64,000 bases of DNA, from the NCBI RefSeq assembly GCF_003334765.1, contig NZ_QOWT01000004.1. One strand, written 5' to 3'. The translations under genes were made by a program, and so were the position numbers. Source of the stretch: Escherichia coli (GTDB taxonomy: Bacteria; Pseudomonadota; Gammaproteobacteria; Enterobacterales; Enterobacteriaceae). Positions 6,316-6,777 of the stretch are shown here, one piece after another. Position 1 is the stretch's first letter; the number at the start of each line of letters is the position of its first letter. The notes beneath the pieces were generated by a model. That model saw only the letters and a program-made list of their open reading frames with translations. It did no database searches and had not been told where the DNA came from.

Positions 6316-6777
6316 TTGTTATGTCTTATCCCACGGTATTTAATATGGTTCATTAGGATGTTTATTTCTTGATTTTGCATATGAGTATATTACCCCCCCC
6401 CTCAAAAAAATAAATTAATTAAAATGATGGCTTATATAAAATAAAATTTAAAGCAAGGAATCTCAATGGATGTTAAACAAAATGAGATTTTGTGAAAGCA
6501 ATAAATTATTGACTTCGTTTTAGATTTGTTTAGCTATAATGTTATACATTCAAATGACTGAACATCCTGTAATTAAAACATAGCCTTTATGCTACTTTGT
6601 GCCAATTTGCTAAACATTATGGTTGCCTTTTTATATAACGATAATAATGAATATAAGCATGACATGAGAATAAGGTTTCAATTTTTGAGTTATATAGGAA
6701 TGATTTAACCTGTTCCTGGCTAAAATACATATAACCGGATGATGACTAAACCAAAATACATGTGCGTTAAGTATTGA

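What the first reader, a model, noticed from the sequence alone, without database searches (positions are those of the whole stretch)
6393..6401. C9 homopolymer tract in the iraM upstream region
A run of nine cytosines (followed by TCAAAAAAA) lies about 80 bp upstream of the iraM start, in otherwise extremely AT-rich DNA. G/C homopolymers of this length are uncommon in E. coli and are prone to slipped-strand length changes that could alter promoter spacing. Nearby are imperfect PhoP-box-like hexamers (GGTTCA-N6-TGTTTA at about 6347-6365), but they deviate from the consensus.
Basis: seen in the sequence. Interest (0 to 1): 0.3.

Follow-up and report, generated by a model that had tools for sequence, protein, structure and literature searches.

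The report
Variable poly-G run in iraM leader
The nine-cytosine run is real and its length differs between E. coli strains through copying slippage. However, it lies inside the transcribed leader of the stress gene iraM, not in its promoter, so it looks like an ordinary unstable homopolymer rather than a genetic switch.

Summary
The C9 run at 6393-6401 is confirmed. It is G9 on the iraM sense strand, 78-86 nt upstream of the iraM ATG, and it is the only G/C run longer than 6 in the 64-kb window.

Its length is polymorphic. Among about 1,350 complete E. coli genomes with the K-12-like allele, the exact counts (upper bounds) are:
- C7: 154
- C8: 615 (includes MG1655)
- C9: 284
- C10: 146
- C11: 78

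C6 and C12 are rare. Short-read metagenome contigs show C7-C10 with identical flanks. Alleles with a short interrupted tract (CCCCTTC) do not vary. A published MG1655 evolution line fixed +C exactly at this site.

Lengths are stable within clones: HS was sequenced three times, and ST167 and several serial isolates agree. This is microsatellite behaviour, not fast phase variation.

Published cappable-seq data place the only transcription start upstream of iraM at window 6437. The start has a -10 TAAATT and a PhoP-like box at -42 to -26. The run is therefore +37 to +45 of a 122-nt leader, so promoter spacing is not affected.

Predicted folding does not change with tract length.

One lead remains: the run is the strongest Shine-Dalgarno-like element in the leader. 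It sits 12 nt before a conserved, unannotated 22-codon upstream ORF whose stop overlaps the iraM start.

The parts
6393..6401 (-). G9 run on the iraM sense strand (C9 on the + strand). It is +37 to +45 of the iraM leader and is the length-polymorphic homopolymer.
   Evidence: Sequence. Length alleles C5-C12. Position relative to the transcription start.
6404..6410 (-). U7/T7 run immediately 5' of the G run on the sense strand (A7 on the + strand). Its length also varies between haplotypes.
6437..6437 (-). Transcription start (an A) of the iraM leader. [quoted passage not shown]
   Evidence: PMC8894471 source data, reference U00096.3. Coordinate mapping through the K-12 locus L001.
6445..6450 (-). 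Inferred -10 hexamer TAAATT (-13 to -8). No -35 match at 17-bp spacing.
   Evidence: Read from the sequence relative to the transcription start. Invariant in all 12 genomes aligned.
6463..6479 (-). PhoP-box-like direct repeat TGTTTA-acatc-CATTGA at -42 to -26. This is an inferred PhoP activation site.
   Evidence: Scores 9 of 12 to the consensus, which is not above chance on its own. The position fits class II PhoP promoters. Both half-sites are kept or improved (TATTGA) in other lineages while the N5 spacer varies.
6316..6437 (-). 122-nt iraM 5' untranslated leader. The first 57 nt are the most variable stretch of the locus.
6312..6380 (-). Unannotated 22-codon upstream ORF ([22 protein letters not shown]). 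Its start is 12 nt 3' of the G run and its stop TGA overlaps the iraM ATG (ATGA).
   Evidence: Translation. Intact in 12 genomes representing about five tract/flank haplotypes. Lowest diversity of the locus. Not in the protein collection.
5992..6315 (-). iraM, the anti-adaptor that protects RpoS from RssB/ClpXP.
   Evidence: ORF list and RefSeq annotation of identical loci.
6347..6364 (+). It lies inside the transcribed leader and the upstream ORF, and is not a plausible activator site for the mapped promoter.

Best explanation
The tract is a replication-slippage-prone mononucleotide microsatellite in the transcribed 5' leader of iraM (+37 to +45 of a 122-nt leader). It is not part of the promoter.

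Origin (inferred): it arose in the K-12-like (phylogroup A type) allele by expansion of a short G-rich element that all lineages carry at this spot (GAGGGGG, GAAGGGG, GGGGAG or GGGAG). Once it was uninterrupted and 7 or more long, it began to gain and lose single bases.

Behaviour (shown): lengths are inherited stably within clones and differ between clones.

Consequence: a length change lengthens or shortens the leader by one base. It leaves the geometry of -10, PhoP-like box and start site untouched. It also leaves the distance from the 3' end of the run to the downstream start codons unchanged.

Most likely effect (inferred): little or no change in iraM expression.

What is shown and what is inferred:
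- Shown: the polymorphism, the invariance of the flanks, the stability of interrupted alleles, and the position of the tract relative to a published start site.
For: Length variation on identical flanks:
- C7, C8, C9, C10 and C11 occur in genomes whose flanks are otherwise identical.
- Exact-match counts in 5,426 complete genomes are C7 154, C8 615, C9 284, C10 146 and C11 78. C6 and C12 are rare.
- 31 metagenome contigs, mostly short-read SPAdes-style (NODE) assemblies by their names, give C7 x2, C8 x6, C9 x6 and C10 x1. There are almost no substitutions in the 162 flanking nt (a single mismatch in two of the contigs).
- 11 CCCCTTC alleles show no length variation.

Changes seen in real time:
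- A silver-adapted MG1655 population fixed +C at 1,212,080.
- In the K-12 pedigree (337 e14+ genomes), one mouse-gut isolate is C9 and six strains, including two independent DH5-alpha assemblies, are C7, while DH1 derivatives are C8.

Clonal stability:
- Strain HS is C11 in three independent sequencings.
- The Ec-050 T0/T5/T20 series, four MRSN serial isolates, and several sister pairs agree with each other.

Position and predicted effect:
- In the paper's 'All TSSs' list, sorted by name, TSS_1212124_- is the only start between 1,211,923 and 1,212,244. It maps to window 6437.
- RNA folding with 0-12 G leaves predicted iraM ribosome-binding-site accessibility at 0.72.
- The leader segment holding the tract is the least constrained part of the locus, with 22% variable columns and indels.
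Against: [quoted passage not shown] The 5' mapping in Bougdour 2008 and Eguchi 2011 could not be read.
- Neutrality is inferred from position and folding only. No expression data by tract length exist.
- A G-rich block is kept at this spot in every lineage within a very AT-rich, indel-rich leader. It is the strongest anti-Shine-Dalgarno complement in the leader (-11 kcal/mol), which hints at function.
- The +C mutation reached fixation in one evolved population. That could be selection rather than hitch-hiking.
- Some C7 calls come from long-read-only assemblies and may be homopolymer undercalls.
Confidence: 0.6

Rival explanations
1. Leader rheostat. The G run works within the mRNA, and its length tunes iraM output. 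The most concrete version is that it acts as the Shine-Dalgarno element of the 22-codon upstream ORF, whose termination (AUGA overlap) reinitiates ribosomes on the poorly equipped iraM start. A longer run would change 30S loading or release. A less specific version is an effect on mRNA level, as I recall for the 5'-leader poly-G of Moraxella catarrhalis uspA1.
For: - The run is the strongest anti-SD complement in the leader (-11 kcal/mol). iraM's own start has only -4.0.
- A G-rich block, followed by a spacer that is always 12 nt long (one substitution, U/A) and then the ATG, is present in all 12 genomes examined.
- The upstream ORF is intact in every genome examined and is the least variable segment of the locus, at 6% versus 10% for the iraM coding region.
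- +C was fixed in one evolved population.
Against: - A 12-nt gap between the run and the ATG is long for an SD.
- The 3' edge of the run, and so the spacing, does not move when the length changes.
- Substitutions in the upstream ORF are mostly nonsynonymous.
- No annotation or protein record exists for the peptide.
- Folding is insensitive to tract length.
- The length distribution is unimodal and stepwise, as expected from mutation alone.
Confidence: 0.25
2. Promoter-spacer phase variation. The run lies between an upstream element and a -10 (for example TATACT at 6389-6384), so single-base changes switch the promoter on and off, as in Bordetella fim or Neisseria porA.
For: - A 5-of-6 match to the -10 consensus, TATACT, lies 3 nt downstream of the run.
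- Tract length is polymorphic.
- The Mg-starvation start site could not be checked in the primary papers.
Against: - No cappable-seq start is recorded at 1,212,0xx in wild-type or delta-hns cells. The only start is 36 nt upstream of the run.
- There is no -35 or PhoP-box match at the right distance upstream of TATACT.
- Other lineages carry 7-bp indels just upstream of the run, where a -35 or activator site for TATACT would have to lie, yet they keep iraM.
- Lengths are clonally stable and not bimodal.
Confidence: 0.07
3. The apparent length variation is mostly a sequencing or assembly artefact at a homopolymer.
For: Many C7 records are long-read assemblies of laboratory strains. Long-read consensus is known to miscount homopolymers; this is general knowledge and was not tested here.
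Against: - Older reference records (from the capillary-sequencing era, by my recollection; not checked here) differ: MG1655 is C8, ETEC H10407 is C10 and HS is C11.
- HS gives C11 in three independent sequencings.
- Sister isolates agree with each other.
- Metagenome contigs, mostly short-read SPAdes-style assemblies by their names, show C7-C10.
- A read-mapping (breseq) call at frequency 1.0 reports +C.
Confidence: 0.05

Closest known systems
Polymorphic mononucleotide microsatellites (homopolymer indel hot spots) in enterobacterial genomes
   Same: - An uninterrupted G/C run of 7-12.
- Single-base stepwise alleles on invariant flanks.
- Instability only when the run is long and uninterrupted.
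- Occasional changes in laboratory lineages.
   Different: No difference in kind. The particular feature here is its location, in the leader of an H-NS-silenced, PhoP-dependent regulator of RpoS stability.
Bordetella pertussis fim2/fim3 promoter poly-C tracts (from memory: Willems et al. 1990). Also Neisseria porA/opc poly-G/C spacers.
   Same: A G/C homopolymer upstream of a gene that is activated by a two-component response regulator, with length polymorphism arising by slippage.
   Different: - In those systems the tract lies between the activator site or -35 and the -10, so its length sets promoter activity.
- Here the tract is downstream of the start site.
- Switching in those systems is frequent within a culture. 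Here lengths are stable within clones.
Moraxella catarrhalis uspA1 poly-G tract in the 5' leader (from memory: Lafontaine et al. 2001)
   Same: A poly-G run of about 9-10 lying downstream of the transcription start and upstream of the start codon.
   Different: In uspA1, 9 versus 10 G was reported to change mRNA level and phenotype. No expression data exist for iraM, and the mechanism in uspA1 is itself unclear.
Canonical E. coli PhoP-activated promoters (mgtA, mgrB, phoP)
   Same: - No -35 hexamer.
- A (T/G)GTTTA-N5-(T/G)GTTTA-like repeat ending about 25 nt upstream of the start.
- PhoQ/PhoP-dependent induction of iraM has been reported (PMC5740661).
   Different: Only one half-site is perfect. 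The second is CATTGA, or TATTGA in other lineages. Direct binding at this site was not checked here.

Membership tests
Slippage-prone mononucleotide microsatellite | Uninterrupted homopolymer long enough to slip (about 7 or more) | tested here: met
   C9 in the window, and C7-C12 in related genomes.
Slippage-prone mononucleotide microsatellite | Stepwise length alleles on invariant flanks, with interrupted alleles stable | tested here: met
   Alleles C7, C8, C9, C10 and C11 (plus one interrupted C5TCC variant) occur with almost no substitutions in the 162 flanking nt: 0 in most sequences, 1 in two contigs. Eleven CCCCTTC alleles show no length change. The count distribution is unimodal, centred on C8.
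Slippage-prone mononucleotide microsatellite | Length changes observed in real time | tested here: met
   +C was fixed in an evolved MG1655 population. In the K-12 pedigree there is one C9 genome and six C7 genomes among 337 e14+ genomes.
SSR-mediated phase-variable promoter (contingency locus) | Repeat lies between the -35 or activator site and the -10 (or in a coding frame), so that length gates expression | tested here: not met
   The tract is +37 to +45 relative to the only recorded start site. It is not inside any ORF in the leader.
SSR-mediated phase-variable promoter (contingency locus) | High-frequency reversible switching within a clone | tested here: not met
   Serial isolates, time series and resequenced strains keep the same length. 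About 330 of the 337 K-12-pedigree genomes match neither the C7 nor the C9 query exactly, and all of those listed are C8. This is indirect evidence. No single-colony deep sequencing was available.
SSR-mediated phase-variable promoter (contingency locus) | Expression differs between length variants | not testable with these tools
   No expression data by tract length were found.
PhoP-activated class II promoter | Direct repeat (T/G)GTTTA-N5-(T/G)GTTTA | tested here: inconclusive
   TGTTTA-N5-CATTGA scores 9 of 12. Eight sites in the spacer reach 9 or more, against 5.1 +/- 2.3 in shuffles. The half-sites are conserved or improved across lineages.
PhoP-activated class II promoter | Box replaces the -35 and ends about 25 nt upstream of the start | tested here: met
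   The box spans -42 to -26 relative to window 6437, and there is no -35 match.
PhoP-activated class II promoter | PhoP-dependent transcription and direct PhoP binding | not testable with these tools
   Dependence on PhoQ/PhoP is reported in the literature (PMC5740661; PMC5775216). Binding data could not be read.
Translationally coupled leader ORF | An ORF in the leader whose stop overlaps the downstream start, conserved across alleles | tested here: met
   ATGA overlap. The ORF is intact in 12 of 12 genomes, representing about five tract/flank haplotypes.
Translationally coupled leader ORF | Evidence that the ORF is translated | not tested
   No ribosome-profiling table covering this locus under inducing conditions was available. 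The peptide is absent from the protein collection.

The most novel reading that the evidence does not exclude
The G run is the expandable ribosome-loading site of a previously unannotated 22-codon leader ORF that is translationally coupled to iraM. On this reading, heritable one-base changes in its length set how much IraM is made, and so how strongly RpoS is stabilised, when PhoP is active. Different E. coli clones would then have different set-points of the general stress response.
Probability: 0.13. Interest if true: 0.6.

Novelty: new member of a known kind. Interest (0 to 1): 0.3.

Why it matters
IraM links Mg2+ and acid sensing by PhoQ/PhoP to the stability of the general stress sigma factor RpoS. 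A hypermutable site in its leader is a plausible source of the strain-to-strain differences in RpoS levels for which E. coli is well known.

If tract length proved to matter, the common laboratory strains would differ in this circuit: MG1655 is C8, DH5-alpha is C7, HS is C11 and H10407 is C10.

As the evidence stands, the practical value is more modest:
- It is a hot spot that will recur in resequencing data and should not be over-interpreted.
- It marks a leader with an unannotated conserved upstream ORF that deserves a direct test.

Tried and rejected
Primary mapping papers for the iraM promoter:
- Bougdour 2008, Eguchi 2011 and Battesti 2012 are not in the library.

Other start-site datasets:
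- Thomason 2015 is not held.
- The Ettwiller 2016 table is cut before 1.2 Mb.
- Singh 2014 and Higashi 2016 have no usable supplement.
- The low-Mg ribosome-profiling preprint has no supplement held.

Sequence-only analyses:
- PhoP-box scoring of the spacer gives nothing above chance.
- A consensus promoter scan gives 12 sites against 7.4 expected, and none could be assigned without the start-site data.
- The SELEX promoter of Shimada 2014 (TTCATA-17-CATAAT) lies about 550 bp upstream, before ymgL, and not at the tract.
- RNA folding across tract lengths shows no switch.
- Rfam gives only sub-threshold chance hits.

Wider searches:
- The species-representative genome scan returned only a 558-bp E. 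coli contaminant contig, so there is no cross-species comparison.
- The upstream-ORF peptides are absent from the protein collection.

Considered and rejected as mechanisms, by inspection of the sequence only:
- An intrinsic terminator: no G+C stem precedes the U7.
- An intramolecular G-quadruplex: there is only one G run.
- A start within the run with reiterative transcription: no start is recorded there.

Full report
**The observation**

Window 6393-6401 is CCCCCCCCC, followed by TC and A7.

The surrounding genes are:
- icd at 4639-5889 (+)
- iraM at 5992-6315 (-), 107 aa, identical to the K-12 protein
- the validated small-protein genes ymgK (6573-6617) and ymgL (6853-6963)
- ycgX and bluR

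On the iraM sense strand the tract is G9, 78-86 nt upstream of the ATG. It is the only G/C run longer than 6 in the window. Extrapolating the observed run-length decay predicts about 0.04 such runs per 64 kb. An i.i.d. model of the 29%-GC spacer predicts about 5e-5.

**Does the length vary?**

The 501-bp region is present in 3,920 of 5,426 complete E. coli genomes, and 1,355 of these are 99% identical or better.

An alignment of 12 genomes chosen across the identity range shows:
- C7, C8 (K-12 MG1655), C9 (this window), C10 and C11 on flanks that are otherwise identical
- CCCCCTC, CCCCTTC, CTCCCC or CTCCCA in the other lineages

Short exact queries of under 100 nt were used, so that one gap drops identity below 99%. 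They give these upper-bound counts: C7 154, C8 615, C9 284, C10 146 and C11 78. Each count includes roughly 14-43 partial perfect hits, judged from ranks. C6 and C12 appear at about one sampled row each.

An independent scan of metagenome contigs, mostly short-read SPAdes-style (NODE) assemblies by their names, gave C7 x2, C8 x6, C9 x6 and C10 x1, plus one interrupted variant. There are almost no substitutions in the 62 + 100 flanking bases (a single mismatch in two contigs). Eleven CCCCTTC alleles showed no length change. The tract is therefore by far the most mutable site of the locus, and it is mutable only when long and uninterrupted. That is the signature of slippage.

**Is the variation real, and how fast is it?**

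Older reference records (from the capillary-sequencing era, by my recollection) differ: MG1655 is C8, ETEC H10407 is C10 and HS is C11. HS gives C11 in three independent sequencings.

Sister or serial isolates agree with each other:
- EJN001 and EBJ001
- MLI023K1 and MLI023K2
- MLI104K1 and MLI104K2
- ZF31 and ZF34
- DDG206 and DDG220
- the Ec-050 T0/T5/T20 series
- four MRSN serial isolates
- several strains that appear to belong to one clone, one of them named ST167

Lengths are therefore heritable and stable over epidemiological time.

Changes do occur:
- A silver-adapted MG1655 population carries '+C at 1,212,080, intergenic (-77/+623) iraM/ycgX' at frequency 1.0 (PMC11510482). This is the first base of the tract.
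- Among the 337 genomes with the K-12-type e14-icdC-iraM junction, one mouse-gut isolate is C9 while its sisters are C8.
- In the same set, six strains are C7, including two independent DH5-alpha assemblies, although DH1 derivatives are C8.

A handful of changes across hundreds of laboratory lineages is microsatellite behaviour. It is not the per-culture switching of a contingency locus. Some C7 calls from long-read-only assemblies may be undercalls.

**Where is the promoter?**

The primary mapping papers were not available.

Forrest et al. [quoted passage not shown] Their source data give:
- iraM with logFC 3.60 (P 4.8e-12)

In the 'All TSSs' list, sorted by name, this is the only start between 1,211,923 (inside iraM) and 1,212,244 (+ strand). 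No start at 1,212,0xx is present.

Using the K-12 locus, the MG1655 tract is 1,212,081-1,212,088, and the start maps to window 6437, an A on the minus strand.

Upstream of it lie:
- TAAATT at -13 to -8
- no -35 match
- TGTTTA-acatc-CATTGA at -42 to -26

That is the position at which PhoP boxes sit in PhoP-activated promoters. The match (9 of 12) is not above chance by itself. However, both half-sites are kept or improved in divergent lineages while the 5-nt spacer changes, and the -10 is invariant.

iraM induction is PhoQ/PhoP-dependent according to the literature. H-NS ChIP regions begin about 280 bp upstream of the start.

The tract is therefore +37 to +45 of a 122-nt leader. The promoter-spacing mechanism is not supported.

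The caveat is that the start site was measured in rich medium, not under Mg2+ starvation.

**What could the tract do in the leader?**

Folding the leader with 0-12 G leaves the predicted accessibility of the iraM start at 0.72 and changes the fold little. No Rfam family matches.

The first 57 nt of the leader, which hold the tract, are the most variable part of the locus, with 22% variable columns including indels. This compares with 12% for the promoter, 10% for iraM and 6% for the next segment. That pattern argues for weak constraint on the tract's length.

One lead remains. That next, most conserved segment is an unannotated 22-codon ORF (6380-6312, [22 protein letters not shown]) whose TGA overlaps the iraM ATG. 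It is intact in all 12 genomes examined, representing about five tract/flank haplotypes.

The G run is the strongest anti-Shine-Dalgarno complement in the leader (-11 kcal/mol), whereas iraM's own start has only -4.0. Every lineage keeps a G-rich block followed by the same 12-nt spacer before this ORF's ATG.

Against a role:
- A 12-nt gap is long for a Shine-Dalgarno element.
- The 3' edge of the run does not move with length.
- Changes in the peptide are mostly nonsynonymous.
- No database holds the peptide.

**Verdict**

The tract is a genuine, unusually long and demonstrably unstable homopolymer. It is a leader microsatellite with clonally stable alleles, not a promoter phase-variation switch.

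I give 0.6 to the near-neutral reading, 0.25 to a leader rheostat, 0.07 to a promoter-spacer switch and 0.05 to artefact.

It is a new example of a known kind of feature and is of modest interest. The upstream ORF is the part most worth an experiment.

Noticed in passing
window 6312-6380 (-): An unannotated 22-codon ORF lies in the iraM leader. Its stop overlaps the iraM start (ATGA). It is intact in all 12 genomes examined and is the least variable segment of the locus. iraM itself has almost no Shine-Dalgarno element.
   Followed up: partly
window 5896-5940 and 6759-6805 (+): A copy of the icd terminator hairpin region (43-nt ungapped copy, 84% identical) is repeated 865 bp downstream, so the two copies bracket iraM and ymgK. 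This looks like the scar of an old insertion next to icd, a known integration hot spot.
   Followed up: partly
window 5889-5992: This strain has an intact icd followed directly by iraM. K-12 carries the e14 prophage here (mcrA and an icd pseudogene copy). Only 337 of the 5,426 genomes have the K-12-type junction.
   Followed up: partly
window about 6235 (-) and about 6557 (+): [quoted passage not shown] One is inside iraM (1,211,923, minus strand). One is antisense in the ymgK region (1,212,244, plus strand).
   Followed up: no
L039 (metagenome contig UMGT01008340.1): This contig has a C7 run followed by TTC, on a haplotype intermediate between the K-12-like and CCCCTTC alleles. It could be an independent expansion, a recombinant, or an evolutionary intermediate.
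   Followed up: no
L044 (NZ_MTSD02000045.1): A 558-bp, roughly 1x-coverage contig in an Oceanospirillum linum assembly carries the iraM upstream region (its flanks match the K-12-like allele exactly) with C8. It is almost certainly E. coli contamination.
   Followed up: no
window about 8130 (bluR); PMC11510482 Table 1: The evolved MG1655 population that fixed +C in the tract also carried bluR D80E at frequency 0.63, only 1.7 kb away.
   Followed up: no
leader, window about 6411-6425, in loci L009-L012: Divergent lineages carry a 7-bp insertion (a duplication of AATTAAA-like sequence) and several substitutions between the start site and the tract. This shows that the segment tolerates indels.
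   Followed up: partly
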